Assembly (NCBI GenBank): GCA_963734845.1
Contig: CAVTIS010000004.1
Span: 158,364 to 222,363, forward strand
DNA: 64,000 nucleotides
Direction: 5' to 3'
From: an uncultured delta proteobacterium
Lineage (GTDB): Bacteria > Desulfobacterota > Binatia > Binatales > Binataceae
Of the stretch, positions 23,213-40,301 are shown one piece after another. A program made the translations under genes and the position numbers. Below the pieces are notes generated by a model that saw only the letters and a list, made by a program, of their open reading frames with translations, was not told where the DNA came from and made no database searches. The first letter of the stretch is position 1. The number at the start of each line of letters is the position of its first letter.

Positions 23213-23402
23213 AAGTCGCCTGGTCACCGCACGCCTTTTGCAATTGTTACCTACGTTACTCTTTAGCCCAGCATAAGCAAGCACGCAAAGGAGCGACGGT
23301 TTCGTTCTTTGGCGGAGACGCTATTCGCTCGACGCTCGAGGCCTCAACCGTGGCACCGGCATCGCCGGTCCGCTTCTCTCGGCTTGACGCTCGCGCGAGC
23401 CG

Positions 23403-23421
23403 GATGATAATAATTATCATC
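23403..23421. promoter_or_regulatory. Fur/PerR-type operator (perfect 19-bp 9-1-9 palindrome)
   Basis: GATGATAAT-A-ATTATCATC, an AT-only perfect palindrome in a GC-rich genome, about 100 bp upstream of the rubrerythrin ATG. Confidence 0.6.
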
Positions 23422-23523
23422 TGGCCGGGCGAGCAAAATCACTTTAGAAAGCGCCGCGGCGACGCGCCGCGCGAGCTGCGCCGCCGGCCATTAACCGCGC
23501 ATACGCTCAGGGAGAGAGCAACA

Positions 23524-23940
23524 ATGAACAATCTGAAAGGAACCAAGACACACGCCAACCTTAAGGATGCCTTTGCCGGCGAGAGCCAGGCCAATCGGCG
23601 CTACCTGTACTTTGCCAAGATTGCCGACGTGGAGGGCCAGCCGGAAATCGCAGGGCTCTTCCGCGATACTGCGGAGGGCGAGACCGGGCACGCTCACGGC
23701 CATCTCGACTATCTCAAGCAGGTCGGCGATCCGGCCACTGACCAGCCGATCGGCGACAGCATGCTCAATCTAAAGTCGGCCGTCCACGGCGAGACCTACG
23801 AGTATACGAACATGTATCCCGGGATGGCGAAGACCGCTCGCGAAGAGGGTTTTACGGAGATCGCCGACTGGTTCGAGACTCTGGCCAAGGCCGAGAAGTC
23901 GCACGCCGGTCGCTTCCAGAAAGCCACCACTACGCTTTAA
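23524..23940 (+). CDS. rubrerythrin-family diiron protein (no rubredoxin domain)
   Basis: ferritin-like diiron ligand motifs E..GE...[25 protein letters not shown]...EEG; RBS GGGAGAGAG before the ATG at 23524. Confidence 0.8.
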
Positions 23941-24120
23941 CGGCGGCCGCCCTGTTAGGTCGTGGCATGCGGGCGCGCCGCGCTCGTTTGCATCTATTCG
24001 AAATTCCGGCCCGCCGGACACCGTTGGGCGTCTGGCGGGCCGGCTCGCGCGTCACCGGCCGTAGTGTACTGCCACAACCTCGATGCCGTAACTTCGACGT
24101 GCCACCCGAGAGCCGCTTAA

Positions 24121-25467
24121 ATGGAACGTATCCAGTCGCGACCGACCGACGCTCTTTCGTACAATCAAAACGAGCCCAAGTACTGGGATCGCGCGGCCCT
24201 CGACCAGGAAATCGAGCGCGTGTTCGACATCTGCGCGGGCTGTCGGCTGTGCTTCAACCTGTGCCCGTCGTTCCCGGAGCTGTTCGGGGCGCTCGATAGC
24301 GGCGACGGCGACGTGCGCAGCCTGAGCGCGGCGCACAAGCAACGCGTGATCGATCTGTGTTACGGCTGCAAGCTGTGCGAGGTGCGATGCCCATACACGC
24401 CGCACGACGGCCACGAGTTCCAGCTCGACTTCCCGCGCCTGATGCTGCGGGCGCGCGCGGTCGAAGGCCGCGAACAGGGAATCGGCATGCGCGAAAAGAT
24501 GCTGGGCAATCCGGACCGCCTGGGCAAGGTCGGGAGCATTGTGCCGAAGCTCGCCAATTGGGCCTGCCGCAGCCCTTTTCAGCGCGCGATGATGGAGAAG
24601 ATGCTCGGCATCTCGCGCGCCAAGCAACTGCCTGAGTTTGCCGGCGAAACCTTCGACGCGTGGCTACAGCGCACGGGAATTCCGGCCGCGCCGGCCGAGC
24701 CCGCGGCCAAGGTCGCCATCTTTCATACCTGCTTCGTCAACTACTACAATCCGGCGCCCGGGCGCGCGCTGGTCTCGGTGCTGGCCCGCAATCGATGCTC
24801 GATGGCGTCGCCGGCGCAGAACTGCTGCGGGATGCCGGCGCTGGACGGCGGCGACGTCGCTTTTGCGCAAAAGCTCGCGCGCGCCAACGTGGCCTCGATG
24901 CTGCCGCTGGTGCGCCAGGGCTATCGCATCGCCGCGATCAATCCGACCTGCTCGCTGATGATGCGCGCGGAATATCCGGACCTGCTCGATACCGCCGAGG
25001 GGCGCGAGCTCGCTGCGGCGGTCGTCGACCCGCACGAGCTGCTCTATGCGCTCCGGCGCGAGGGCAAATTTGACCGCGATTTTCGCACCACGCCGGGCAA
25101 GGTCGCCTATCACGTGCCGTGTCATCTCAAGGCCCAGAACGTGGGCCTGCGCTCGCGCGATCTTATCCGATCGATCCCGGGCGCGGAGGTCGTGACGGTG
25201 GACGCCTGCACGGCTCACGACGGCACCTGGGCGATGAAGAGGGAGTTTTTCGAGCTGTCGATGAAGTGGGGAGCGAAGGCCTTCGCCGGAATGAAGGACG
25301 CCGAAGCGCAGGTGTTGGCCACCGACTGTCCGCTCGCCGCGATCCAGATCGAGCAGGCCATCGGCGTGCGCCCGCTCAACCCGGTCGAGATTCTGGCGCG
25401 CGCTTACGAGGCCGACGGCTTCGCCGCGCCAGTGCCGCCGCCGGAGCCGCCCGCCGTCGAGGAGTGA
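24121..25467 (+). CDS. Fe-S oxidoreductase with two 4Fe-4S ferredoxin motifs and CCG domains (GlcF/GlpC/HdrD-like)
   Basis: CAGCRLCFNLCP and CYGCKLCEVRCP (CxxCxxCxxxCP); C-terminal Cys-rich CCG segment (NCCGMPA). Confidence 0.7.
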   Translation: MERIQSRPTDALSYNQNEPKYWDRAALDQEIERVFDICAGCRLCFNLCPSFPELFGALDSGDGDVRSLSAAHKQRVIDLCYGCKLCEVRCPYTPHDGHEFQLDFPRLMLRARAVEGREQGIGMREKMLGNPDRLGKVGSIVPKLANWACRSPFQRAMMEKMLGISRAKQLPEFAGETFDAWLQRTGIPAAPAEPAAKVAIFHTCFVNYYNPAPGRALVSVLARNRCSMASPAQNCCGMPALDGGDVAFAQKLARANVASMLPLVRQGYRIAAINPTCSLMMRAEYPDLLDTAEGRELAAAVVDPHELLYALRREGKFDRDFRTTPGKVAYHVPCHLKAQNVGLRSRDLIRSIPGAEVVTVDACTAHDGTWAMKREFFELSMKWGAKAFAGMKDAEAQVLATDCPLAAIQIEQAIGVRPLNPVEILARAYEADGFAAPVPPPEPPAVEE

Positions 25468-25471
25468 AACC

Positions 25472-26056
25472 GTGAAACCGATAACTCCCCCCGAAGTACT
25501 GCCGGTTACGACCTATGACCGCGTGCGGCCCCTGCTGCGCCCACTATGCATCGCCGAAAAGACGCGCCGTCGCCTCGCCGTCGGTCCTCATCTCACGCTG
25601 ATGTTCGAAAACCGTCAGACGGTCTGGTACCAAATCCAGGAAATCCTGCGCACCGAGCGCATCTTCGAGGAGGCCGCGGTCAACGCCGAGGTCGAGACCT
25701 ATAACGAACTTCTGCCGCGCCCGGGCGAACTCTTTGCCACCCTGCTCATCGAGTATGCGGACCCGGCCGAACGCGACGTCGAGCTTGCCCGCCTGGTGGG
25801 TCTGGAGCGCCATTTGTGGATCGTTCTTGACGGACGCCGCGTCGGCGCCCGCTTCGATGAACGCCAAATGTCGCCGGATCAGATAAGCGCGGTGCAGTTC
25901 ATCGCTTTTCCGCTGGGCGCGGAAGCCGGCCGTTTTGGAGAGCTGGCGGCAGTCGGCAAGGCCGCAATCGAAGTTGACCATCCGCATCTCTCCGTCACGG
26001 CTCCAATTGAAGGCCCACTCGCAGAGGCGCTTAGCGACGATCTGCGCCCCGATTAG
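25472..26056 (+). CDS. DUF3501-like uncharacterised protein
   Basis: about 190-aa protein immediately downstream of the CCG Fe-S gene on the same strand; DUF assignment is from memory of family context and is uncertain. Confidence 0.35.
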   Translation: MKPITPPEVLPVTTYDRVRPLLRPLCIAEKTRRRLAVGPHLTLMFENRQTVWYQIQEILRTERIFEEAAVNAEVETYNELLPRPGELFATLLIEYADPAERDVELARLVGLERHLWIVLDGRRVGARFDERQMSPDQISAVQFIAFPLGAEAGRFGELAAVGKAAIEVDHPHLSVTAPIEGPLAEALSDDLRPD

Positions 26057-28794: not shown

Positions 28795-29811
<1,017 letters not shown>

Positions 29812-29956
29812 CTTTCGCAGAGGTTCCCGCGCGCTTAGGATTCCGGCCGCGCCATCGCGCCTTTGAGCATTTTCTTTTTCCGATCGCATAGAACTTCGCG
29901 ATTGCAGTTCCATTGGCCTTGCCCTCGACCGCCATTTCGCGAAAGTATGATCCGAC

Positions 29957-30535
29957 ATGGCTGAGCGGAGACGCAGATTTTCGGCTTTCATGGTGCGCGG
30001 CGGTCTCGCGCGCCACTCGCTTAACGACGAGAGCGCGGCCTTCCCGGAGAGCTTCGCGCTCACGCGGCTGCACGACGCCGTGCAGTGGGCGCGCAAGTAT
30101 TCCTTTTTCACCTACCCGTTCGTGACCGCGTGTTGCGGGATGGAATATTTCTCGGTCGCCGGCCCGCGCTACGACATCGACCGCTTCGGTGCGGCATTGC
30201 CGCGGTTCACTCCGCGCCAGGCCGATCTGTTGTTCGTGGTCGGCACCATCACGCAGCGCCAGGCGCCGATCCTGCGCCGCGTGTGGGAGCAGATGGCGGA
30301 GCCAAAATGGGTGGTATCGTTCGGCGCCTGCACCAGTTCGGGCGGCCCCTACGACAACTACGCTGTGCTACAGGGCATCGACCGCATCATTCCGGTCGAC
30401 GTCTACATTCCCGGATGTCCGCCGCGCCCCGAGGCCGTCCTCGACGGCCTGATCAAGCTGCAGTACCGCGTCCAGAACGAACGTCAGCCTCAACTGTGGT
30501 CCAGTCTCCATGGCAGCGGACGCAAGCTCGACTAA
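29957..30535 (+). CDS. nuoB: NADH-quinone oxidoreductase subunit B
   Basis: N2 cluster motifs CCGMEYF, GACTSSGGPYD, IPGCPPRPE. Confidence 0.9.
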   Translation: MAERRRRFSAFMVRGGLARHSLNDESAAFPESFALTRLHDAVQWARKYSFFTYPFVTACCGMEYFSVAGPRYDIDRFGAALPRFTPRQADLLFVVGTITQRQAPILRRVWEQMAEPKWVVSFGACTSSGGPYDNYAVLQGIDRIIPVDVYIPGCPPRPEAVLDGLIKLQYRVQNERQPQLWSSLHGSGRKLD

Positions 30536-32177
30536 CCCCCCCAAGGCCAACGCCCCTAGCGCTCCTAGCGCCCCGAAGACCGCGAAGCTCACGGTCGACG
30601 GCCGCGCGATCGAAGCGCCCGAGGGCACGCCGCTGTTGCAGGCGATGCTCGATGCGGGAATCGACCTCCCGCACTACTGCTACCATCCCAAGCTCAGCAT
30701 CGACGGCAGTTGCCGCCTTTGCCAGGTCAAGATCGAGGGGATGCCGAAGCTTCAGATTTCCTGCAACACCCAGGTGCGCGACGGGATGGTCGTGCATACG
30801 GCGGACCCGGAGGTCGCGCTGGCACGCCGCGGCGTGCTCGAGCTGCTCCTGATCAACCATCCGCTGGATTGCCCGATCTGCGACAAGGCCGGAGAGTGCT
30901 GGCTGCAAAACTACGCGATGCGCTTTGGGAGCCGCCATGCGCGTACGCTCGATCCGCGGCGCAAGCATGAGAAAAGGCTGGACATCGGCGAGCGTATGCT
31001 GCTCGACCAGGAACGATGCATCCTGTGCCGGCGCTGTGTTCGCTTTTGCCGCGAGATCAGCAAGACCGGCGAGCTCGCCGTTTTCAACCTTGGCGACCGC
31101 TCGGTGCTCGACGTCTATGACCGCCGCCTAGACAATGACTACTCCATCTGCACCGCCGACATCTGCCCGGTCGGCGCACTCGAAAGCAAGGACTTCCATC
31201 ATCGCATCCGGGTCTGGTTTCTCCAGGAGACCGCCAGCGTTTGTCCCGGTTGTTCCAACGGCTGCAACATCATGATCTCGGAGTATCGCAATCGCATCTG
31301 GCGGCTGATCCCGCGCCGCAACGACGCGGTCAACGACACCTGGATGTGCGACCAGGGGCGTTTGGACTATAAGTTCGTCGATGCATCCGAGCGCTTGCGG
31401 GCGCCGATGGTCGAGGAGAATGGCGCGCTTGCCCCGACCACGTGGGAGGAGGCGCTGGCGCGGGCCTCAGCTGCGATCGCGGCGCTCAAAGAGCGCCACG
31501 GCGACGGCGCGATGGGCGCGGTCGTCTCGCCCCATCTCACCGTCGAGGAGAATTTTCGCTTCGGCGAGTTCTTGCGCGCAGCTGGCGCGGGCAAGAGCGC
31601 GATGGCGGTGCGGCGCGGGCCCGCCGACGACTTCCTGATCAAGGCCGAGAAAGCGGCCAACGCGCGCGGCGTGCGCGAGCTGGGCCTGGTGAGCGGCAGT
31701 GACGACGGGCTCGGCGAGCTGTTGCGGGCCGTGGAAGCCGGCGAGCTCAAGGGACTCTACCTTTGCGGTGACGATGTTCTTGAGACGCTTGCCCCCGAAC
31801 GTCTCACGGCAATTCTGGGAAGGCTCGAACTCTTGATTGTGCAGACGCTCAAGCTCGACCAGCGCCTGGGCGCGGCCGCCGTGGTGTTTCCCACCACGGC
31901 CTTCGCCGAGAAGGACGGTTCGTTTGTCAACCACGCCGGGCGCGTGCAGCGCATTTATAAGGCGATCGAAACGGCGCCGGGATGGCTCAGCGACGGTGAG
32001 ATTTTCACGCGCTTGCTCAACGCTATCGACCCCAGCGATCGCCGCTTCGATCCTGATGCGATGTGGGAGCCGATATGCCGCGCGCATTCGCGCTTCGCCG
32101 GGCTTTCGCTGGACTCCCTCGGAGCTAGTGGCGCGATGCCTAACGGCGCGGGCGTGCAGGGCACAAGCGACCGTTGA
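30510..32177 (+). CDS. nuoG: NADH-quinone oxidoreductase subunit G, short form (555 aa)
   Basis: 2Fe-2S (CYHPKLSIDGSCRLCQV), HPLDCPICDKAGEC, CILCRRCVRFC, CPVGAL Fe-S motifs plus a truncated molybdopterin-like domain; 26-nt overlap with nuoB. Confidence 0.8.
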   Translation: MAADASSTNPPKANAPSAPSAPKTAKLTVDGRAIEAPEGTPLLQAMLDAGIDLPHYCYHPKLSIDGSCRLCQVKIEGMPKLQISCNTQVRDGMVVHTADPEVALARRGVLELLLINHPLDCPICDKAGECWLQNYAMRFGSRHARTLDPRRKHEKRLDIGERMLLDQERCILCRRCVRFCREISKTGELAVFNLGDRSVLDVYDRRLDNDYSICTADICPVGALESKDFHHRIRVWFLQETASVCPGCSNGCNIMISEYRNRIWRLIPRRNDAVNDTWMCDQGRLDYKFVDASERLRAPMVEENGALAPTTWEEALARASAAIAALKERHGDGAMGAVVSPHLTVEENFRFGEFLRAAGAGKSAMAVRRGPADDFLIKAEKAANARGVRELGLVSGSDDGLGELLRAVEAGELKGLYLCGDDVLETLAPERLTAILGRLELLIVQTLKLDQRLGAAAVVFPTTAFAEKDGSFVNHAGRVQRIYKAIETAPGWLSDGEIFTRLLNAIDPSDRRFDPDAMWEPICRAHSRFAGLSLDSLGASGAMPNGAGVQGTSDR

Positions 32178-32267
32178 AGCGCTTGCCGTTAGACGATCAA
32201 TTGACGCACTCTGTGCTTGCGAACCGGCATCTGATGCCGGCAAAAAGCCGCAGGGGGGCGAAGAATA

Positions 32268-33668
32268 ATGGCGACCGCAGCGGTTTCTGAAGCGGGTGGC
32301 CTCAAGGGCTACCTCGCGACCCATCGCACCCTCGAGACTTATCCGGTCGGCGCACATCGCTGGGCCATGCTGATGCTCACGGTGCTCGCGACGATCGTCT
32401 CGTTCTACGAATTCCAGTTCGCGCCGCTGTTGCCGCTGTGGATGCCGGCGCTGCATTTCAGCCTGGACGACTTCGGCTGGTTTTTGTTGTTCGCGGTACT
32501 GCTCTCGGGCGGTTCGGCGATGATCGGCGGGCCGCTTGCCGATCGTCACGGCCGTATCATCATCATCGACGTGTGCCTCGCGATCATCATCGTATTGACC
32601 TTTGCCAATCTCCTGATGACCGGGTTCTGGTCGTTCGTGATCGTTCGCGGTGCGATGAATCTGACGGCGGGGCTGATGTGGGGTGCGCTCGGGGGCCTCA
32701 CCCGCGATATGTCGCCGCGCGTCAGCCGCGGCGCGGCCTTCGGCCTGCTTACGGTTGGCGCGGTCGGCTGCATCTTCCTGTGGAATTTCATCAGCGGCGA
32801 GACGCTACCGCTTTTCCATAACGCATGGCAGTCACAGATCTGGATCATGGGGATCCTGGCGATCGTCATGTACATCCCCGTTCTGCTGTGGCTCAAGGAT
32901 TTGCATCCAAACCTGCGCCTGACCATCGTCGAGAGCGAAGCGACGGTCGCCGCCGCTCCGGCCGAGCATATGCGCGAGGCGGCGATGAAAGTTCCGGCCA
33001 GCGGAAGCGCAGCCTTCAGGGAGTTGCTCGGCCGTTGGGAGGTGTGGGTCCTGGTGGTCGGGTCGGTGGCCTTCCTGACGCTGCCGATCACCAGCCAGAC
33101 GTTTTTCCCGGTGATGTTCACCGGCGCATTCCATTACACTCCGGCCGCGGCGGCCAAGATGGCGTCGTACTTCTGGCTGCTCAACCTGTTCATGCTGGTG
33201 CCGGCCGGCTTGCTCTCGGACAAGCTGCGGGTGCGCAAACCGCTGGTGTTGATTGGCGACGTCGCCGCTCTGGTGGCGCTGGTCTGGTGGATTGGAACGT
33301 TCTCCAATCCATTGCCGCCGTTTCAGTTGGCGACGATGATGTTTGTGCTCGGCGGCCTGGTCGCCTTCGCCTTCATCCCCTGGTGCGCGCAATATTCGGA
33401 ACTGCTCGAAGACATCTCGCCCGCGCTGCAGGCGAGCGGATGGTCATTCTTTCAGTTGATTTACCGCGGCTGGATCGCCATCTCGGGGACTATTGTCACG
33501 CACGTTTCGCATCGCTACGGATGGGCGGCATGGATGTGGGTGGCCGCCGCGGGTATGGCGATGCTTATTCCCGCGATGCTCTCGGTGCGCGGCGGATGGC
33601 TGCCGGCCAAGGCCGGACAGGGCTCAGATGGGCATGCGGCGCCCACCGTGCGGCCATCGCCCGCGTAG
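32268..33668 (+). CDS. MFS transporter
   Basis: about 12 hydrophobic segments; MFS signature GGPLADRHGRI between TM2 and TM3. Confidence 0.7.
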   Translation: MATAAVSEAGGLKGYLATHRTLETYPVGAHRWAMLMLTVLATIVSFYEFQFAPLLPLWMPALHFSLDDFGWFLLFAVLLSGGSAMIGGPLADRHGRIIIIDVCLAIIIVLTFANLLMTGFWSFVIVRGAMNLTAGLMWGALGGLTRDMSPRVSRGAAFGLLTVGAVGCIFLWNFISGETLPLFHNAWQSQIWIMGILAIVMYIPVLLWLKDLHPNLRLTIVESEATVAAAPAEHMREAAMKVPASGSAAFRELLGRWEVWVLVVGSVAFLTLPITSQTFFPVMFTGAFHYTPAAAAKMASYFWLLNLFMLVPAGLLSDKLRVRKPLVLIGDVAALVALVWWIGTFSNPLPPFQLATMMFVLGGLVAFAFIPWCAQYSELLEDISPALQASGWSFFQLIYRGWIAISGTIVTHVSHRYGWAAWMWVAAAGMAMLIPAMLSVRGGWLPAKAGQGSDGHAAPTVRPSPA

Positions 33669-33736
33669 GCCAAATCTGTAAAACTGATCCTGAAAATTGA
33701 ACCTGCACGACTTGTACAACGGATAGTTAAAGCGAG

Positions 33737-34270
33737 ATGGCGATTCGAATAGTAAAGGTTGCACGGCCGGCGCCAAGCCTGGTCGGGCCGTACTCGCTGC
33801 GGGCGGTGCTGGTGGGACTGTGGGTCGCGTCGGCCCATCTGCTGCGCAACCTCTTCGGCTTCATGCGCGGGCGGCAGGACTTCACCGTGTATTTTCCCGA
33901 GCAGCGCTTCGTGCAGCCGCCGGCTATGCGCGGGATGCCGGTGCTGGTGCAAATGGAAAGCGGCAAGGAGCGATGCGTCGCGTGCGGGCTATGCGAATGG
34001 GCCTGCCCCACCACCTGCATCACGATCTTTCCGGCCGAGACCGTCGACGAGGTCGAACGTTACCCCGAGATTTTCGACATCGATATGTCGCGCTGCATGT
34101 TTTGCGGGTTGTGCGAAGAGGCCTGCCCCGAAGAGGCGATCGTGATGAGCCGCGAGGTCGAAATCGCAACCTACTCGCGCCGCGGCTCGCTCTGGCACAA
34201 GGCCGATCTGCTGGTGCCGCAGGATCGTCTCAAAACCCGAACCGACTTTCTGCGCGGCCACTATGAATAA
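33737..34270 (+). CDS. nuoI: NADH-quinone oxidoreductase subunit I
   Basis: two 4Fe-4S motifs CVACGLCEWACP and CMFCGLCEEACP. Confidence 0.9.
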   Translation: MAIRIVKVARPAPSLVGPYSLRAVLVGLWVASAHLLRNLFGFMRGRQDFTVYFPEQRFVQPPAMRGMPVLVQMESGKERCVACGLCEWACPTTCITIFPAETVDEVERYPEIFDIDMSRCMFCGLCEEACPEEAIVMSREVEIATYSRRGSLWHKADLLVPQDRLKTRTDFLRGHYE

Positions 34271-34276
34271 GGACCG

Positions 34277-34930
34277 ATGAGCGCCCCCGAAGAACCAAAA
34301 ACGCCCCCGCCGCCCGAGCCTTCCGCGTTGTTGCAAAAGGTGATCGCGCGGCTTGGCCCGCTGCTTGCGGAGCATCAGAGCTTTCGCGGCGACGACTGCG
34401 TCCACGTCGCGCGCGAGCATATTCTCGAAGTCGCGCGCGCGCTGCGTGACTCGCCCGAGCTTGGCTTCGACCTGCTGCTCGACGTCACCTGCGTCGATTA
34501 CTTCGGCCAGCTCGACGGTTTCAAGAACGCTCCCGAAATCTGGGATCGCAATCGCAACCTGGTGCGCAAGCGCGCCGAGTGGCGCCATCGCGTCAACATG
34601 CCCGCGCGCGGTGACGCGCCGCGCTTCGCCGTGGTCTATCATCTGGTCTCCACTCGCCTGCTCCATCGCTTGCGCGTGAAATGCCGGGTGCCGGAAGACA
34701 ATCCGGTGATCGCTAGCCTGAGCGGCCTATGGTCCGGCGCCAACTGGCTGGAGCGCGAAACCTTCGACCTCTACGGTATCCGCTTCGATGGCCATCCAGA
34801 CCTCCGCCGCATCTATCTCTACGACGAATTCGTAGGCCATCCACTGCGCAAAGACTACGCCAAACACGACGAACAACCGATTGAACCTTATGCCGGACCT
34901 GGAGCCCAAGAACCCCGTCGTCCCAACTGA
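34277..34930 (+). CDS. nuoC: NADH-quinone oxidoreductase subunit C (30 kDa)
   Basis: FDLLLDVTCVDYF...ERETFDLYGIRFDGHPDLRRI typical of NuoC. Confidence 0.85.
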   Translation: MSAPEEPKTPPPPEPSALLQKVIARLGPLLAEHQSFRGDDCVHVAREHILEVARALRDSPELGFDLLLDVTCVDYFGQLDGFKNAPEIWDRNRNLVRKRAEWRHRVNMPARGDAPRFAVVYHLVSTRLLHRLRVKCRVPEDNPVIASLSGLWSGANWLERETFDLYGIRFDGHPDLRRIYLYDEFVGHPLRKDYAKHDEQPIEPYAGPGAQEPRRPN

Positions 34931-36128
34931 CCCGTCGTCCGCCGATTCGTCGCGCGATCTGCAAACGCCGCTGATGCGGATGCAGATGGGCCCGTCGCAT
35001 CCGGCGACTCACGGCACGGTCAAGATGGTGCTCGACCTCGACGGCGAACGCGTGGTCAAAGCTGACATCCAGGTCGGCTATCTCCATCGCGGCTTCGAGA
35101 AAGAATGCGAGACCGGATACTACTACCAGAACATCCCATACACCGACCGGCTGAACTACAGCTCGCCGATGCTCAACAACGTCGGTTACTGCCTCGCGGT
35201 CGAGAAGCTGATGGATCTGCGCACGCCGCCGCGCTGCGATTTCATCCGGGTGATTGCGGGCGAGATCTCGCGCATGAGCGACCATTATCTGTGCCTGGGT
35301 GCGATGGCGCTCGAGCTGGCGGCGATGACCCCGTTTCTGTACCTGCTCGAGGCGCGCGAGCTGATGTGCGATTTGCTCGACGCGCTTTGCGGCGCGCGCG
35401 TCACCACCAACTACATCCGCATCGGTGGCGTTTCGGCCGACCTGCCCCAGGGCTTCGATCGCTTCGCCGCCGAGCGCCTGGATCGCTCACTCGTTCTGCT
35501 CGGCGACGCCGACAAACTGCTCACGCAAAATCCGGTGTTTCGCGATCGCGTCGAGGGTACCGGCCATCTGGCGCCCGAAACGCTAATCGCGCAGGGCGTG
35601 ACCGGCCCGCTGCTCCGCGCCGGCGGCGTGGCCTACGACGTGCGCCGCGTGCAGCCATATCTCGTGTACGGAGAGTTGGACTTTGACGTCCCGGTAGGCG
35701 AGCACAGCGACAACTTCGACCGCTACCTGGTGCGCCTGGAAGAAGTGCGCCAGAGCCGCCGCATGATCGCGCAATGCTTCGAGAAAATTCCCGCCGGGCC
35801 CGTTAACTCCGACGACCCCCGCGTGCGCTGGCCGCGCAAGGGCCAGGTGTTCGGCCGGATGGAAGAATTGATCGACCAGTTCAAGCTGGTCACCGAGGGC
35901 GGCCTCATCCCGCCGGGCGAGGTCTATCACGCGGTCGAAGGCGCCAACGGCGAGCTGGGTTTTTATATCGTAAGCGACGGCACCGGAAAGCCGTACAAGT
36001 GCCGATGCCGCGCGCCGAGCTTCTCCAATATGTCGGCATTGGAAAAGATGATCACCGGCGGGATGCTGGCCGACGTGGTGCCGACCTTCGACTTGATCAA
36101 CATGATCGGCGGCGAGTGCGACCGTTAG
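34881..36128 (+). CDS. nuoD: NADH-quinone oxidoreductase subunit D (49 kDa)
   Basis: GPSHPATHGTVKMVLDLDGERV...GYLHRGFEKECE; no NiFe-binding Cys; start may be an internal Met (overlaps the nuoC end). Confidence 0.9.
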   Translation: MNLMPDLEPKNPVVPTDPSSADSSRDLQTPLMRMQMGPSHPATHGTVKMVLDLDGERVVKADIQVGYLHRGFEKECETGYYYQNIPYTDRLNYSSPMLNNVGYCLAVEKLMDLRTPPRCDFIRVIAGEISRMSDHYLCLGAMALELAAMTPFLYLLEARELMCDLLDALCGARVTTNYIRIGGVSADLPQGFDRFAAERLDRSLVLLGDADKLLTQNPVFRDRVEGTGHLAPETLIAQGVTGPLLRAGGVAYDVRRVQPYLVYGELDFDVPVGEHSDNFDRYLVRLEEVRQSRRMIAQCFEKIPAGPVNSDDPRVRWPRKGQVFGRMEELIDQFKLVTEGGLIPPGEVYHAVEGANGELGFYIVSDGTGKPYKCRCRAPSFSNMSALEKMITGGMLADVVPTFDLINMIGGECDR

Positions 36129-36167
36129 GGCGCCGTCGCCGCGACAACCGCCTGAGCATGAAATACG

Positions 36168-37958
36168 ATGGCCTTGTCGGCTGAAACGCAGGAAAAGATC
36201 CGCGCCGAGCAGGCGCGCTTTCCCAATCCGCGCGGCGCGTTGCTCGCCGCGATCTATCTCGCGCGCGACGACCTCGGTGCGCTGGGCCCTGAGGCCTTTG
36301 CCGAACTTGCGCCGCTATTCGGCATGCGAGCCAACGAGGTCGCCGAAGTCGCCTCGTTCTACTCGCTCTTCAATCTGCCCCGTGCGCAGGCGGTAATTCA
36401 GGTTTGCACCAATCTGCCGTGCTGCCTGCGTGGCGCGCGCGGCGTGGTGCGCGAGCTTGAGCATCGGCTCGGTATTAAGGCCGGCACTGCTACACCCGAC
36501 GGCCGCTTCGCGATCGCAGAAGTCGAATGCCTCGGCTCATGCGCGACCGCGCCGGTCGTGCAGGTGAACCGCAATCCGTATCTGGAAAACGTAACGCCGG
36601 AGTTGGCGGCAACCCTGCTTGAATCGCCGGACGCGGCGCGCGCGGCGCGCCGCCCCGCGCCGGTCATCTCGCACGTTCCCGACGGCGTCGAGGGATACCT
36701 GCTGCCGCGCGGGGACGAGAAATGGCTGACGCTAGAGGAATATCGCGCGCACGGCGGCTTCAAGGCGGCTCCCAAGGCGGGCGCGATGACGCCCAAGGAC
36801 CTCGCGACACTGGTGAAGGACTCCAACCTTCGCGGACGCGGCGGCGCCGGTTTCGTCACCGGACTTAAGTGGACGTTCATGCCGCCGCGCGACGCGCGTC
36901 CGCGCTACCTCGCGGTCAATGCCGACGAGAGCGAGCCCGGCACCTTCAAGGACCGCCAGATCATGTCGCGCAATCCGTTCCTGCCGCTGGAGGGAATCAT
37001 GATCGCCGCGATGGCGATGGAGTCCACCGCCGCCTTCATCTACATCCGCGGCGAATACGTCGAGGAATTCGCGGCGATGAGCGCGGCGATCCGCTCGCTC
37101 TACGAAGCGAAAATTCTCGGCGACAACGCGCTCGGCTTCAACCGCCGCTTCGACATCACCATCCAGCAGGGCGCCGGTGCGTACATCTGCGGCGAGGAGA
37201 GCGGGATGCTGGAATCGATGGAAGGGCGCAAGGGACAGCCGCGCAAGCGCCCGCCCTTTCCCGCGCAGGCGGGATTGTGGGGCCAGCCGACCACGGTCGA
37301 CAACGTCGAAACGCTCTCGCACGTGCCGGTGATCGTGATGCGCGGCGCGCAATGGTTCCTGGATGAAGGAGTCAAGAACGCCGCCGGCCACACGCTGTTC
37401 GGCGTGAGCGGCCACGTCAACAATCCGGGAATTTTCGAGCTTCGGCTCGGCGTCAAGCTGCGCGATCTCATCTATCAGCACGCCGGCGGAGTTATCGGCG
37501 GACGGCCGATCAAGGCGATCATTCCGGGCGGCGTCTCGATGCCGGTGCTGCGCGGCGACCAGATCGACGTCGCGATGGATCACGAATCGTTGCGCGCGGC
37601 CGGCACGCTTATCGGCACCGGCGGGGCGATCGTGATGGACGATCGTACCTGCATGGTCCGCACGGCGCTGGTAGTGGCGCGTTTTTTCGAGCACGAGTCG
37701 TGTGGCCAGTGCACCCAGTGCCGCGAGGGCACCGGCTGGACATATAAGACGCTGCGCCGGATCGAAAGCGGCGGAGGCGAACCGCAGGATCTTCAGACCC
37801 TGGCCGACACTTTTGATTTCATGGACGGCAAATGCATCTGCGCGCTCGCCGACGGCGCGTCATGGGCGGCGCGCGCGTTTCTCAAACAGTTTCGCGCCGA
37901 CTTTGAGGCCCACATCACGGAGCACCGATGCCCCTTTCCGGAGAGTTTCGAGGTATGA
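36168..37958 (+). CDS. nuoEF: fused NADH-quinone oxidoreductase subunits E (24 kDa) and F (51 kDa)
   Basis: N-terminal NuoE 2Fe-2S cysteines (CTNLPCC...ECLGSC); C-terminal NuoF NADH/FMN motifs (RGRGGAGFVTGLKW, NADESEPGTFKDR, ICGEESGMLESMEG) in one 596-aa ORF. Confidence 0.85.
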   Translation: MALSAETQEKIRAEQARFPNPRGALLAAIYLARDDLGALGPEAFAELAPLFGMRANEVAEVASFYSLFNLPRAQAVIQVCTNLPCCLRGARGVVRELEHRLGIKAGTATPDGRFAIAEVECLGSCATAPVVQVNRNPYLENVTPELAATLLESPDAARAARRPAPVISHVPDGVEGYLLPRGDEKWLTLEEYRAHGGFKAAPKAGAMTPKDLATLVKDSNLRGRGGAGFVTGLKWTFMPPRDARPRYLAVNADESEPGTFKDRQIMSRNPFLPLEGIMIAAMAMESTAAFIYIRGEYVEEFAAMSAAIRSLYEAKILGDNALGFNRRFDITIQQGAGAYICGEESGMLESMEGRKGQPRKRPPFPAQAGLWGQPTTVDNVETLSHVPVIVMRGAQWFLDEGVKNAAGHTLFGVSGHVNNPGIFELRLGVKLRDLIYQHAGGVIGGRPIKAIIPGGVSMPVLRGDQIDVAMDHESLRAAGTLIGTGGAIVMDDRTCMVRTALVVARFFEHESCGQCTQCREGTGWTYKTLRRIESGGGEPQDLQTLADTFDFMDGKCICALADGASWAARAFLKQFRADFEAHITEHRCPFPESFEV

Positions 37959-38359
37959 GCGCCGACCGGCCGGCCCGCAACGCGATCGTCGCTATCCTCG
38001 GCACGCCCGACCGAACCGAGGGCAGCCTCGACGATCCGCGCGAGCGTGAAGAAGACGGCGTGCGCTTCAACGAGAAATGGATCTATACGCATCTGCGCCG
38101 CGATCCGGCGGGCGCCGCGATGCGCACGGTTTACTGGATGCGCTACGATTTTCGCGGTACCGCCGTGCGTAACAACGAGGCGGAACCTTGGCGGCCCGAC
38201 ACCGCACTCGTCGAGGCCGCCGCGAAACGCGACGACCGTCTCCCGCCGCTCGATCCGTCGCGCAATCCGCAGCTTGCGCCTAGCACCAGGTATCGTCCAG
38301 TCTCGGATTTTACCGGCGTGTCCGACCTCGGCGGCGAAATCCAGGAAAAAAAATCCTGA
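37955..38359 (+). CDS. hypothetical protein (about 134 aa)
   Basis: ATG overlaps the nuoEF stop (GTATGAGC); charged, non-membrane protein with no recognisable motif. Confidence 0.4.
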   Translation: MSADRPARNAIVAILGTPDRTEGSLDDPREREEDGVRFNEKWIYTHLRRDPAGAAMRTVYWMRYDFRGTAVRNNEAEPWRPDTALVEAAAKRDDRLPPLDPSRNPQLAPSTRYRPVSDFTGVSDLGGEIQEKKS

Positions 38360-38388
38360 CCAAGACTTGGGTCCGCGCGCCGGCCCGC

Positions 38389-39336
38389 TCAGCTGCCGAA
38401 GGCTTCGCGCAACGCGGCCGCCGCTTCCAGAATCGACTGGCGGCCCTTGGCCAGAATCGGCGCCATCCCGGTGAACGCGTGCGTCACGCCCTCATAGCGC
38501 GAGCATTTGACCGCGACCCCCGCGCGTTTGAGACGCGCGGCGTATTCCTCAGCCTCGTCGCGCAGCGGATCGTATTCGGCGGTGACGATCAGCGCCGGCG
38601 GCAGATCGCGTAAATCCTTGGCCACGCCTGGACAGCAATATGGATTGGCGCGATCGCGCTCGGAGGACAGGTAGCAGCTCCAGAACCACTCCATGTCGGC
38701 ACGCGAGAGCAGATAATACGTTCCGGTGGAGTAGTCGCGATGAGACGGCGTGTCCATCGCTGCGTCGGTCGCCGGGTACCACATCACCTGGCATCCGATA
38801 CGTGGGCCGCGGCGATCACGAGCCATCATGGCGACCGCGGCCGCCAGCGTCCCGCCAGCACTGGTGCCGGCGACCGCCAGGTGCGAGCGCTCTGCTCCGA
38901 GCGCCGCGGCGTTGTCCGCGATCCATACGGTCGCGGCGTAGCAATCGTCGGGGCTCGCGGGAAACCGATGCTCCGGCGCGAGCCGGTAATCGACCGACAC
39001 GACCACGCATCGCGCAGCATTAGTCAGTATCCGGCAGATAACGTCATGAGTGTTCAGATCGCCCGCGACCCATCCGCCGCCATGGAAGAAAGCCACCGCG
39101 GGGAGCGGCGCGTCAGCCGACGGATGCGCTGACGGACGATAGATGCGAACAGGAATCTCGCCCGCTGGTCCCGGGATGCGCCGGTCTTCGACCTGCGCGA
39201 CGGATTCTCGCGCGCCCGTCGCCGAACCGCTGCGGATAGCCTCGCGCACTTTCTCGATGCCCAGCGTATGAAACGCAGGGCCGCCGGCTTCGGCGGCCTT
39301 GTCGAGTATCGCCTTCATTTGCGGGTCCAATGGCAT
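38389..39336 (-). CDS. alpha/beta-hydrolase fold-3 esterase/lipase (HSL family)
   Basis: oxyanion-hole motif FFHGGGWVAGD and the nucleophile-elbow AVAGTSAGG segment. Confidence 0.8.
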   Translation of the reverse strand: MPLDPQMKAILDKAAEAGGPAFHTLGIEKVREAIRSGSATGARESVAQVEDRRIPGPAGEIPVRIYRPSAHPSADAPLPAVAFFHGGGWVAGDLNTHDVICRILTNAARCVVVSVDYRLAPEHRFPASPDDCYAATVWIADNAAALGAERSHLAVAGTSAGGTLAAAVAMMARDRRGPRIGCQVMWYPATDAAMDTPSHRDYSTGTYYLLSRADMEWFWSCYLSSERDRANPYCCPGVAKDLRDLPPALIVTAEYDPLRDEAEEYAARLKRAGVAVKCSRYEGVTHAFTGMAPILAKGRQSILEAAAALREAFGS

Positions 39337-39362
39337 GCGCGAATTCCCTTACTGCCGCTGCG

Positions 39363-40301
39363 CTACTTCTTGAGCGCAGCTTTGAGCGCCGCGCCCATGT
39401 CCGTGATCGCCTTGCGCGCCTCGTCGAGCACCGCCCCCATCAGCACGAAGCCGTGAGTGACCCCTTCGTAACGGACGCACTCGGTCTTGACGCCTGCCTC
39501 CTGCAAGCGCGCCGCGTAGGTCTCTCCCTCGTCGCGCAGCGGATCGAAACCGGCCGTCACCACCAGCGCCGGCGGCAATCCGCGCAGGCTGCTGGCCTCG
39601 GCCGGGCACGCGTACGGGTTGGTTTTGTCCTTGTCGCTGTTGAGGTAATGGCCCCAGAACCAGATCATGTCCTTCTTGGACAAGATATAACCGTCGTCCT
39701 GAAACTGCTGTTGCGAGGGCGTGTCGAGCCCGGCGTCGGTCGCAGGATAAATCAGGAGCTGGAAGCTGATTTTCGGGCCACCGCGATCGCGCGCCATCAG
39801 TGCAACCACCGCGGCGAGATTTCCGCCCGCGCTGTCGCCGCCGACCGCCACGCGCGCCGGGTCGCCGCCGATCGACGCCGCGTTCTCCGCGGCCCATTTG
39901 GTCGCGGCATAGCAGTCTTCCGGGCCGGCAGGAAATTTGTGCTCCGGCGCGAGCCGATAATCGACCGACACCGTCACGCATCCCGAAGCGTTGCACAGTG
40001 AGCGGCAAAACGAATCCCACGACGTGGTATCGCCGACTGTCCATCCGCCGCCGTGAAAGTAAACCAGCACCGGAAACGGCGCGCGGCCTTCGGGGGTATA
40101 AATCTGTACCGGGATTTGGCCGCCCGGTCCGGGGATGTTGCGTTTCTCTGACTTGGCGACTTTCTCGGGAGCGCTGTTGAATGGCTCCAGCAGCGCCGTA
40201 ATTCCCTGACGCGCCTCGACCGGCGTCATCGAATGGAACGGCTTGCCGCCGGAGGCGGCTGCCTGGTCCAGAATTGCCTTCATTTGGGGATGCAGCTGCA
40301 T
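39363..40301 (-). CDS. alpha/beta-hydrolase fold-3 esterase/lipase (HSL family), paralog
   Basis: YFHGGGWTVGD and GDSAGG motifs; N-terminus MQLHPQMKAILDQAA is parallel to its neighbour's MPLDPQMKAILDKAA. Confidence 0.8.
   Translation of the reverse strand: MQLHPQMKAILDQAAASGGKPFHSMTPVEARQGITALLEPFNSAPEKVAKSEKRNIPGPGGQIPVQIYTPEGRAPFPVLVYFHGGGWTVGDTTSWDSFCRSLCNASGCVTVSVDYRLAPEHKFPAGPEDCYAATKWAAENAASIGGDPARVAVGGDSAGGNLAAVVALMARDRGGPKISFQLLIYPATDAGLDTPSQQQFQDDGYILSKKDMIWFWGHYLNSDKDKTNPYACPAEASSLRGLPPALVVTAGFDPLRDEGETYAARLQEAGVKTECVRYEGVTHGFVLMGAVLDEARKAITDMGAALKAALKK

What the first reader, a model, noticed from the sequence alone, without database searches (positions are those of the whole stretch)
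32268..33668. MFS transporter gene embedded inside the nuo operon
A 466-aa MFS-type transporter (DRxGRR signature) lies between nuoG and nuoI on the same strand with short gaps. It is therefore probably co-transcribed with respiratory-chain subunits. I do not recognise this as a standard arrangement.
Basis: seen in the sequence. Interest (0 to 1): 0.5.

Follow-up and report, generated by a model that had tools for sequence, protein, structure and literature searches.

The report
Transporter gene inserted in atypical nuo cluster
A real membrane-transporter (MFS) gene sits between nuoG and nuoI, but the "nuo operon" is an unusual cluster with no membrane subunits, found in uncultured Binataceae soil bacteria, and the transporter is a lineage-specific insertion that most likely works as an ordinary transporter, not as part of the respiratory enzyme.

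Summary
ORF 32268-33668 (+) encodes a 466-aa, 12-helix MFS protein. It is not a misread NuoH. It lies 90 nt after a short nuoG and 68 nt before nuoI.

The surrounding operon is not a standard nuo operon. It reads nuoB, short nuoG, [MFS], nuoI, nuoC, nuoD, fused nuoEF, then a small unknown ORF. No nuoA/H/J/L/M homolog was found in the 64-kb window or within 10 kb of the cluster in 40 related loci.

The organism belongs to Candidatus Binataceae (Binatota). In 26 species-level relatives the MFS sits at the same junction, is intact, and has dN/dS of about 0.05-0.17. In 8 other Binataceae-type clusters and in Myxococcota the MFS is absent, and nuoG and nuoI abut (-1 to 7 nt). The MFS is therefore a derived insertion and is dispensable for the complex.

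The insert brought non-coding spacers. The upstream spacer holds a conserved promoter-like element (TTGACA-N17/18-CATAGC in the sister clade, weaker in the window). No terminators were found.

The closest folds are organic-anion MFS transporters (DgoT, sialin, G6PT). Close homologs also occur outside nuo clusters.

Most likely this is an ordinary transporter that is transcriptionally tied to nuoI-X. A role as membrane partner is not excluded (about 7%).

The parts
29957..30535 (+). nuoB-like gene (192 aa), first gene of the cluster
   Evidence: Pfam Oxidored_q6 3e-26 and NCBIfam NuoB 1.6e-78. All four cluster-N2 cysteines are present (CC, GAC, GCPP) in the alignment to PDB NDUFS7/NuoB.
30510..32177 (+). 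short nuoG-like gene (555 aa)
   Evidence: Fer2_4, NADH-G_4Fe-4S_3 and Fer4_Nqo3 domains plus a truncated molybdopterin domain; TIGR01973 4e-123 over model positions 1-338.
32178..32267 (+). nuoG-MFS spacer (90 nt). It holds a promoter-like block, CTTGCCG (32182-32188)-N18-CACTCT (32207-32212). It also holds a conserved stem-loop (32209-32255, apical hairpin 32224-32240) that overlaps the GGGGG ribosome-binding site.
   Evidence: Sequence. The block is conserved across the window's genus, and TTGACA-N17/18-CATAGC occupies the same place in the sister clade. The stem-loop is conserved but shows 0 of 26 compensatory pairs. The consensus scanner does not call a sigma-70 promoter here.
32268..33668 (+). 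MFS transporter gene (466 aa), the finding
   Evidence: Pfam MFS_1 2.4e-25. 12-helix AF2 model, pLDDT 84.6. Foldseek best hits are DgoT 6e9n, sialin and G6PT. dN/dS is 0.05-0.17 in the less diverged pairs and 0.285 in the most diverged pair. Orthologs in 26 loci.
33669..33736 (+). MFS-nuoI spacer (68 nt) with a 13-nt tandem repeat (33680-33705)
   Evidence: Repeat copy number and spacer length vary (68-175 nt) within the genus.
33737..34270 (+). nuoI-like gene (177 aa, two 4Fe-4S motifs)
   Evidence: Pfam Fer4; NCBIfam NuoI 2.3e-36.
34277..34930 (+). nuoC-like gene (217 aa)
   Evidence: Complex1_30kDa 1e-42.
34881..36128 (+). nuoD-like gene (415 aa; the ORF from the TTG start overlaps nuoC)
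   Evidence: Complex1_49kDa 3e-99 and NF004739 6.8e-141. Best PDB match is NDUFS2, 2e-110. The quinone ligands are kept (His in GPSHPATHG, Tyr in DRLNYSS) and there are no NiFe cysteine motifs.
36168..37958 (+). fused nuoE-nuoF gene (596 aa)
   Evidence: 2Fe-2S_thioredx + Complex1_51K + SLBB + NADH_4Fe-4S domains; nuoF_fam 7e-160; nuoE_fam 4.5e-36.
37955..38359 (+). small conserved soluble ORF 'X' (134 aa) that closes the cluster
   Evidence: No Pfam hit. Present after nuoEF in the Binataceae clusters whose downstream end is on the contig, and a short homolog follows nuoD in Myxococcota.

Best explanation
The gene encodes an ordinary, functional MFS secondary transporter. It belongs to a small, divergent family largely confined to Binataceae, and its fold is closest to organic-anion/H+ transporters.

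In an ancestor of one Binataceae sub-lineage the gene was inserted, together with its own leader and promoter-like element, into the tightly coupled nuoG|nuoI junction. The host cluster is non-canonical and has no membrane subunits: nuoB-G-I-C-D-EF-X. The gene has since been kept there under purifying selection.

It most likely acts as a transporter, not as a subunit of the NADH dehydrogenase. Because no terminators flank it, its transcript probably continues into nuoI-C-D-EF-X and may also be reached by read-through from nuoB-G. Solute uptake would then be expressed together with the NADH-oxidising module.

Shown: the protein's identity and fold, the cluster composition, the presence/absence pattern, the selection, the spacers and their conserved motifs. 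Inferred: promoter function, co-transcription, substrate class (organic anion), and the absence of a physical role.
For: - MFS identity and a 12-helix model. The nearest solved folds are DgoT, sialin, SLC37A4/G6PT and FLVCR at about 15% identity.
- All MFS signature positions are invariant across 45 homologs: D92/G95/R96, R127, the R146-R154 loop, D318/R323 and R400.
- dN/dS is 0.05-0.17 in the less diverged pairs (0.285 in the most diverged pair, L026 vs L024), similar to nuoG and X.
- The same cluster occurs without the MFS in L006, L007/8, L035-L037 and L039-L041, where the nuoG stop and nuoI start are -1 to 7 nt apart (58 nt in L036). The MFS is also absent from the Myxococcota nuoI-C-D-X loci.
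- MFS-bearing clusters are nested among MFS-less ones.
- Family members also sit outside nuo clusters: P0120 and P0110 next to cupin, amidohydrolase and lactonase genes, and P0115 next to nitroreductase and methyltransferase genes.
- Only 6 conservative positions distinguish nuo-linked copies from those outside.
- A conserved TTGACA-N17/18-CATAGC element lies just after the nuoG stop in 14 loci. The window genus has a weaker counterpart.
- No terminator-like site lies in either spacer.
Against: - Every sampled descendant of the insertion has kept the gene at this exact junction, although both flanks of the cluster have been rearranged. That is more than a neutral passenger would predict and leaves room for a tighter functional tie.
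- The insertion site is exactly where nuoH lies in the related A-B-C-D-G-H-I clusters.
- The substrate is unknown. No curated MFS subfamily model comes near its cut-off.
- The promoter is only a motif; its -10 part is poor by E. coli standards and the scanner does not call it.
- The 6-protein tree does not recover MFS-bearing clusters as monophyletic (49/200), so the history may include a loss or a second gain.
Confidence: 0.62

Rival explanations
1. The protein's transport function is irrelevant to the cluster. What matters is transcriptional architecture: the inserted cassette split a tightly coupled operon and supplied a new internal promoter that now drives nuoI-C-D-EF-X. The gene is then retained at this site by entrenchment, or simply because it is independently useful.
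For: - MFS-less clusters have nuoG and nuoI 0-7 nt apart, whereas MFS-bearing ones have 87-305 nt and 31-175 nt spacers.
- A conserved -35/-10-like element lies in the upstream spacer.
- In one clade a second element (TTTAYC-N16-TAGACT) lies just before nuoI.
- There are no terminators.
Against: - The coding sequence is under purifying selection along its whole length and keeps all transporter motifs, so the protein itself is needed.
- Promoter function is untested.
- The window's own element is weak.
Confidence: 0.2
2. The MFS protein is the membrane partner of the peripheral-arm-only NADH dehydrogenase. It would anchor the NuoB/C/D/I module in place of NuoH, or deliver an acceptor or substrate to the N2/quinone site.
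For: - The cluster has no other membrane protein.
- The MFS occupies the G|I position that nuoH holds in related A-B-C-D-G-H-I clusters.
- It is retained in all 26 descendant loci.
- NuoD and NuoB keep the residues of a working quinone/N2 site that would need a membrane partner.
Against: - Close sister lineages and Myxococcota have the same peripheral module without any MFS.
- Nuo-linked copies show no distinctive surface changes relative to copies in unrelated neighbourhoods.
- All transporter motifs are retained.
- The literature reports nuoA-N subunits in all Binatota genomes, so a NuoH is presumably available elsewhere.
Confidence: 0.07
3. The ORF is really NuoH, or another complex I membrane subunit, misread as an MFS; or it is a decaying pseudogene.
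For: Its position between nuoG and nuoI and its size (466 aa) are compatible with the long NuoH forms (for example 455 aa in Pendulispora).
Against: - Pfam gives MFS_1 and no NADHdh hit.
- The 12-helix MFS fold is matched by 340 PDB MFS chains.
- A real NuoH from a relative has no tblastn hit anywhere in the window.
- The ORF is intact with low dN/dS.
Confidence: 0.01

Closest known systems
Canonical bacterial complex I operon (nuoA-N / nqo1-14)
   Same: NuoB, C, D, I, E, F and G homologs carry all the expected cofactor-binding residues: the N2 cysteines, the NuoD His/Tyr, and the FMN/NADH module.
   Different: Gene order is B-G-[MFS]-I-C-D-EF-X. nuoE and nuoF are fused and nuoG is shortened. 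There is an extra small ORF X. No nuoA/H/J/L/M homolog was found in the window or within 10 kb in 40 related loci (nuoK and nuoN were not among the queries). An MFS gene is inserted.
'Partial' complex I operons: the 11-subunit enzymes lacking nuoEFG (Moparthi & Hagerhall 2011, PMC3144371; Spero et al. 2015, PMC4453560)
   Same: A conserved nuo-derived cluster that lacks a whole module of the 14-gene set.
   Different: The missing module is the opposite one. Here the membrane arm is absent and the N- and Q-modules are present. Neither paper describes such a cluster or an MFS insert.
Related A-B-C-D-G(short)-H-I clusters of Myxococcota (Pendulispora albinea L090; L044, L091, L092)
   Same: The nearest relatives of the window's NuoB and NuoD outside the B-G-I-C-D-EF-X clusters (NuoD 52-54%, NuoB 56-63%; NuoC, NuoG and NuoI only 32-38%). 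They share the short NuoG and have nuoG next to nuoI with one gene in between.
   Different: The gene between G and I there is a genuine nuoH (PF00146). nuoA is present, nuoE/F are absent, and there is no X.
Organic-anion MFS transporters: DgoT (ACS family), sialin/VGLUT (SLC17), G6PT/GlpT-like (SLC37/OPA)
   Same: Best structural matches (Foldseek E 2.5e-8 to 1e-7, TM about 0.67-0.8). They share the loop motifs after TM2, TM4 and TM8.
   Different: Only about 15% identity. The curated family models score far below their cut-offs (TIGR00893 39.7 vs 395 bits; TIGR00881 31.4 vs 408). By my reading of the sequence, the DgoT coupling pair (D46/R47, E133) has no clear counterpart.
Rhodothermus marinus nqo operon carrying nhaD (Na+/H+ antiporter) and pcd genes (recalled from memory: Melo et al. 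2005; not retrieved)
   Same: A precedent for a transporter gene embedded in, and reportedly co-transcribed with, complex I genes.
   Different: That operon encodes a complete complex I, and the transporter belongs to another family. I could not verify the details here.

Membership tests
Major facilitator superfamily (MFS) | Match to Pfam MFS_1 above the gathering score | tested here: met
   89.6 bits vs 33.4, E=2.4e-25, residues 40-405.
Major facilitator superfamily (MFS) | Twelve transmembrane helices in two six-helix bundles | tested here: met
   AF2 model with pLDDT 84.6 and pTM 0.84. 340 PDB chains match at E<=0.001, and the listed best matches are MFS transporters or close relatives.
Major facilitator superfamily (MFS) | Motif A (GxxxDRxGR[RK]) in the TM2-TM3 loop and its echo in the TM8-TM9 loop | tested here: met
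   G87-G-P-L-A-D92-R-H-G-R96-I, with the last position I instead of R/K, and S317-D318-K-L-R-V-R323-K. D92, G95, R96, D318 and R323 are invariant in 45 homologs.
ACS family of MFS (DgoT-like, TC 2.A.1.14) | Curated family model TIGR00893 above its cut-off | tested here: not met
   39.7 bits vs cut-off 395. The resemblance is structural only.
OPA family of MFS (GlpT/UhpT/PgtP) | Curated family model TIGR00881 above its cut-off | tested here: not met
   31.4 bits vs 407.75. The JGI names 'OPA family ... -like' are automatic.
NuoH / complex I subunit 1 | Match to PF00146 (NADHdh) | tested here: not met
   No hit for the window ORF. A real NuoH (L044) scores 6e-96. NuoH queries have no tblastn hit in the window.
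Canonical complex I (nuoA-N) operon | Membrane-arm genes nuoA, H, J, K, L, M, N present with the peripheral-arm genes | tested here: not met
   NuoA, H, J, L and M queries from canonical loci give no hit (>=55 bits) in the 64-kb window or in 40 Binataceae loci, while the peripheral-arm proteins in the same query set (NuoB, C, D, E, F, G, I) each hit 32-42 loci. nuoK and nuoN were not among the queries. Whether these genes lie elsewhere in the genome was not testable here. The literature says yes for Binatota in general.
Complex I Q-module (NuoB/C/D/I) | Four cysteines ligating cluster N2 in NuoB; quinone-ligand His and Tyr in NuoD | tested here: met
   Alignments to NDUFS7 and NDUFS2.
Complex I N-module (NuoE/F/G) | NuoE 2Fe-2S thioredoxin-like domain, NuoF FMN/NADH and 4Fe-4S domains, NuoG N-terminal Fe-S domains | tested here: met
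   Pfam and NCBIfam hits. E and F are fused and G is truncated at the C-terminus.
[NiFe] hydrogenases related to complex I (groups 3 and 4) | Two CxxC motifs ligating Ni-Fe in the large subunit | tested here: not met
   The NuoD homolog aligns end to end with NDUFS2. The N-terminal motif region has no Cys pair, and the C-terminus reads GECDR with a single Cys. Matches to hydrogenase subunits are much weaker (1e-34 vs 1e-110).
Operon membership of the MFS gene (co-transcription with nuo genes) | One transcript spanning nuoG-MFS-nuoI | not testable with these tools
   Indirect evidence only: same strand, no terminator-like sites in the spacers, and a conserved promoter-like element upstream of the MFS.

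The most novel reading that the evidence does not exclude
In this Binataceae lineage the MFS protein has been recruited as the membrane partner of a complex-I-derived NADH dehydrogenase that lacks a membrane arm. It would take the place of NuoH at the base of the NuoB/C/D/I module, either anchoring the module or gating access of a lipophilic or anionic acceptor to cluster N2. This would be a previously unknown way of coupling a complex I peripheral arm to the membrane.
Probability: 0.07. Interest if true: 0.85.

Novelty: new variant of a known kind. Interest (0 to 1): 0.35.

Why it matters
The MFS insertion on its own is a modest curiosity. It shows a transporter gene captured by, and stably kept inside, a redox-enzyme operon, probably reshaping that operon's transcription.

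The host cluster is of wider interest. It is a conserved gene set of complex I peripheral-arm subunits only (B-G-I-C-D-EF plus a new small protein X). It occurs in Binataceae, and a partial nuoB ... nuoI-C-D-X set occurs in Myxococcota. The quinone and N2 sites are intact, yet no membrane subunit is nearby.

If this module works on its own or with a non-NuoH partner, it would be a new branch of the complex I family. If it docks on a membrane arm encoded elsewhere, it is an example of modular, possibly interchangeable, peripheral arms. Both outcomes can be tested using the MAGs named here.

Tried and rejected
1. NuoH misannotation: rejected.

2. Known RNA elements in the spacers: no Rfam match at E<=1 in 29000-39500.

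3. Consensus sigma-70 promoters and intrinsic terminators in the window cluster: none in the spacers. The same holds for L001.

4. Covariation support for the stem-loop in the MFS leader: 0 of 26 pairs are compensatory, so there is no evidence either way.

5. Finding nuoH in the same genome:
   - The last protein search used a relative's NuoH.
   - One hit (P0318, L089) lies on a contig with the same ENA assembly accession as the MFS-bearing L001. I first read this as 'same MAG'.
   - I withdrew that reading. L089 has 69.7% GC against 62.6%, tetranucleotide r is only 0.92, no taxon names are attached, and the accession is probably a sample-level assembly.
   - The taxonomy of L089, L091 and L092 is therefore unknown.

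6. Monophyly of MFS-bearing clusters:
   - Supported by 135/200 bootstraps with 4 proteins rooted on Myxococcota.
   - Supported by only 49/200 with 6 proteins rooted on L006.
   - The tight, similar nuoG|nuoI junctions of the MFS-less loci argue against a secondary precise loss, but one loss or a second gain cannot be excluded.

7. Literature: nothing on an MFS in nuo clusters, and nothing on nuo clusters lacking membrane subunits. The Rhodothermus nhaD precedent could not be retrieved.

8. tblastx for membrane subunits produced only composition noise. It was replaced by tblastn with defined proteins.

9. MFS subfamily assignment: no curated model comes near its cut-off. Only 393 representatives out of 1.84 billion reach E<=0.001.

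Full report
**Observation**

The ORF at 32268-33668 (+) is real: it starts with ATG and encodes 466 aa. Given its position between nuoG and nuoI, a misread NuoH was my first suspicion, and that is ruled out:
- Pfam gives MFS_1 (E=2.4e-25, above the gathering score) and no NADHdh hit.
- A genuine NuoH from a relative scores 6e-96 on PF00146 and has no tblastn match anywhere in the window.
- An AlphaFold2 model built on 45 homologs is confident (pLDDT 84.6, pTM 0.84) and shows the canonical 12 helices.

The sequence reads ADRHGRI: the D, G and second R are invariant in the family, and the final R/K is replaced by I. The neighbours on the same strand are a short NuoG (30510-32177) and NuoI (33737-34270). 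The gaps are 90 and 68 nt.

**What the 'nuo operon' really is**

The + strand from 29957 to 38359 carries these genes:
- nuoB
- a 555-aa nuoG
- the MFS
- nuoI, nuoC and nuoD
- a fused nuoE-nuoF (596 aa)
- a 134-aa soluble ORF with no Pfam match, here called X

The redox machinery looks intact. NuoB keeps the four N2 cysteines. NuoD aligns end to end with mitochondrial NDUFS2 (2e-110). It keeps the quinone-ligand His and Tyr and has no NiFe cysteine motifs.

No membrane-arm gene was found. NuoA, H, J, L and M proteins taken from canonical loci have no hit in the 64-kb window. They also have no hit within 10 kb of the cluster in 40 related loci. The peripheral-arm proteins in the same query set (NuoB, C, D, E, F, G, I) each hit 32-42 loci. 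nuoK and nuoN were not among the queries.

**Organism and conservation**

MFS and NuoD homologs that carry names come from Candidatus Binataceae MAGs, phylum Binatota. L009 (DATJID010000016.1) is 96-99% identical at the protein level.

I mapped the eight window proteins onto loci fetched by exact-protein look-ups and by a scan of GTDB species representatives. The results:
- The MFS sits between nuoG and nuoI in 26 species-level loci. MFS identity to the window is 52-99%; NuoD identity is 72-99%.
- The genes flanking the cluster differ between loci (sigma-70, Fur/rubrerythrin, thiamine/pyridoxal genes, GDP-mannose dehydratase).
- The MFS is under purifying selection. dN/dS is 0.05-0.17 in the less diverged pairs and 0.285 in the most diverged pair. 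This is comparable to nuoG and X and somewhat higher than nuoB/D/EF.

**The MFS is an insertion**

Clusters with NuoD 68-79% identical (L006, L007/8, L035-L037, L039-L041) have the same gene order without the MFS. In these the nuoG stop and the nuoI start are -1 to 7 nt apart, and 58 nt in L036. L007 shares the Fur-rubrerythrin-CCG-DUF3501 neighbourhood of the MFS-bearing L004.

The next relatives are Myxococcota (NuoD 58-59%). They have nuoB ... nuoI-nuoC-nuoD-X, separated by 2-oxoacid dehydrogenase and lipoate genes, and no MFS.

The phylogenetic evidence is mixed:
- A concatenated NuoB+I+C+D tree rooted on Myxococcota nests all MFS-bearing clusters as one clade inside the MFS-less ones (135/200 bootstraps).
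- A six-protein tree rooted on L006 instead places three MFS-less loci beside one MFS-bearing subclade (monophyly 49/200).

I therefore state one gain with confidence. A possible later loss, or a second acquisition, remains open. The uniform tight G|I junctions of the MFS-less loci argue against a precise secondary deletion. Under either history, closely related organisms run the same cluster without the MFS.

**What came in with the gene**

MFS-bearing loci have spacers of 87-305 nt before the MFS and 31-175 nt after it (607 and 436 nt in L034). In the loci inspected, all other gene junctions abut, overlap or are separated by far less.

*Upstream spacer.* Directly after the nuoG stop, 14 loci of the sister clades carry CTTGACA-N17/18-CATAGC. 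The -35 hexamer is perfect, while the rest of the spacer has diverged. The window's genus has CTTGCCG-N18-CACTCT at the same place (32182-32212), 55 nt before the ATG. This is followed by a conserved stem-loop that overlaps the ribosome-binding site (32209-32255). That stem-loop shows no compensatory changes.

*Downstream spacer.* One clade has TTTAYC-N16-TAGACT ending 7 nt before nuoI.

*Negative results.* The consensus scanner calls no sigma-70 promoter and no terminator in either spacer. Rfam finds nothing.

*Inference.* The cassette probably brought, or evolved, its own promoter. Nothing stops transcription from running on into nuoI-X, or from nuoB-G into the MFS. This is inference from motifs, not a measurement.

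**What kind of MFS**

The family is small and divergent. Only 393 of 1.84 billion representatives reach E<=0.001, and 51 reach 1e-30. The nearest named relatives are again Ca. Binatus proteins.

No curated subfamily model comes near its cut-off. By sequence, PDB relatives are marginal (NorA, 7e-4). By fold, the best matches are DgoT, sialin, SLC37A4/G6PT and FLVCR, which points to an organic-anion-type MFS.

Relatives at 51-54% identity lie in unrelated neighbourhoods:
- P0120 and P0110 sit next to cupin, amidohydrolase, lactonase and luciferase-like monooxygenase genes.
- P0115 sits next to nitroreductase and a UbiE-like methyltransferase.

In an NJ tree, P0120 and P0110 even nest among the nuo-linked copies. 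Only six positions, all conservative, are specific to nuo-linked copies. There is thus no sequence sign of a new docking function.

**Interpretation**

The best-supported reading (about 0.6) is an ordinary transporter gene inserted into the nuoG|nuoI junction of a nuo cluster that lacks membrane subunits. It has been maintained by selection on its transport function and is transcriptionally tied to nuoI-X.

A variant (about 0.2) holds that the main consequence is the new internal promoter.

The exciting alternative is that the MFS replaces NuoH as the membrane partner. Three things keep it alive:
- The cluster has no other membrane protein.
- The insertion site is exactly where nuoH lies in the related A-B-C-D-G-H-I clusters of Pendulispora and of L044, L091 and L092.
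- Every sampled descendant has kept the gene.

Three things weaken it:
- The MFS-less sister clusters.
- The unremarkable sequence of the nuo-linked copies.
- The literature statement that all Binatota genomes encode all complex I subunits.

I put it at about 0.07.

**Caveats**

- I could not inspect whole genomes, so the location of nuoA/H/J-N in these organisms, and whether a second B/C/D/I set exists, is unknown.
- I withdrew an initial inference that L089 (an A-B-C-G-H-I locus lacking nuoD) belongs to the same MAG as L001. Its GC content and tetranucleotide pattern differ from L001, and no taxon names are attached.
- Promoter, co-transcription and substrate are inferences.
- The Rhodothermus marinus precedent (nhaD within the nqo operon) is from memory and could not be verified.

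**Verdict**

- The feature is a new variant of known kinds: an MFS transporter and a complex-I-derived gene cluster.
- Interest is moderate to low for the MFS itself. It is somewhat higher for the host cluster of peripheral-arm genes only.

Noticed in passing
window 29957-38359 (whole cluster); L006, L007, L035-L041, L042, L043: This conserved nuo-derived cluster encodes only peripheral-arm subunits (B-G-I-C-D-EF) plus a small unknown protein, and no membrane subunit lies within 10 kb in 40 loci. Myxococcota carry a partial version (nuoB ... nuoI-C-D-X). I found no description of such a cluster in the papers searched.
   Followed up: partly
window 37955-38359 (+): Small soluble ORF 'X' (134 aa, no Pfam hit) ends the Binataceae clusters whose downstream end is on the contig. 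A shorter homolog (motif NE[KR]W.Y) follows nuoD in Myxococcota L042/L043. It is a candidate new accessory subunit or assembly factor. dN/dS is 0.11-0.31.
   Followed up: partly
window 33680-33705; L014 8693-8777: The MFS-nuoI spacer of the window's genus carries a 13-14-nt tandem repeat (unit TTGGTCCTGCGAAG in L014). Copy number ranges from 2 in the window to 6 in L014, so the spacer varies from 68 to 175 nt between close species.
   Followed up: partly
window 32209-32255: A conserved stem-loop lies in the MFS leader. Its 3' arm (CGCAGGG) overlaps the GGGGG ribosome-binding site, and the apical hairpin CCGGC-loop-GCCGG has a variable loop. No compensatory changes were seen, so structure is neither supported nor refuted.
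   Followed up: yes
L089 7719-10001 (ENA ERZ25039495:contig_46381): This related nuoA-B-C-G-H-I locus has no nuoD, with only 48 nt between nuoC and nuoG. Its close relatives L091 and L092 have nuoD there. The taxonomy of these contigs is unknown. L089 has 69.7% GC against 62.6% for L001, which carries the same assembly accession.
   Followed up: partly
L042 1084-8861; L043; L006 13985-17369: In Myxococcota, genes for a 2-oxoacid dehydrogenase complex (E1, E2, E3) and lipoate synthesis (lipB, lipA) sit between nuoB and nuoI-C-D-X. In L006, E1 and E2 genes follow the cluster. This hints at a link between the module and NADH-producing 2-oxoacid oxidation.
   Followed up: no
window 23350-26056; L004 4406-7432; L007 1270-4470: A rubrerythrin / CCG-domain Fe-S protein / DUF3501 set recurs next to the cluster in distant Binataceae lineages, both with and without the MFS. 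Fur accompanies it in L004 and L007.
   Followed up: no
window 34881-34930: The longest nuoD ORF starts at a TTG and overlaps the end of nuoC by 50 nt. A similar overlap of about 40 nt is called in L001, L004 and L005. The true start codon is uncertain.
   Followed up: no
L011 5631-8778: In this long-read MAG, both nuoG and the MFS are split over several reading frames. These are most likely assembly indel errors, not pseudogenes.
   Followed up: yes
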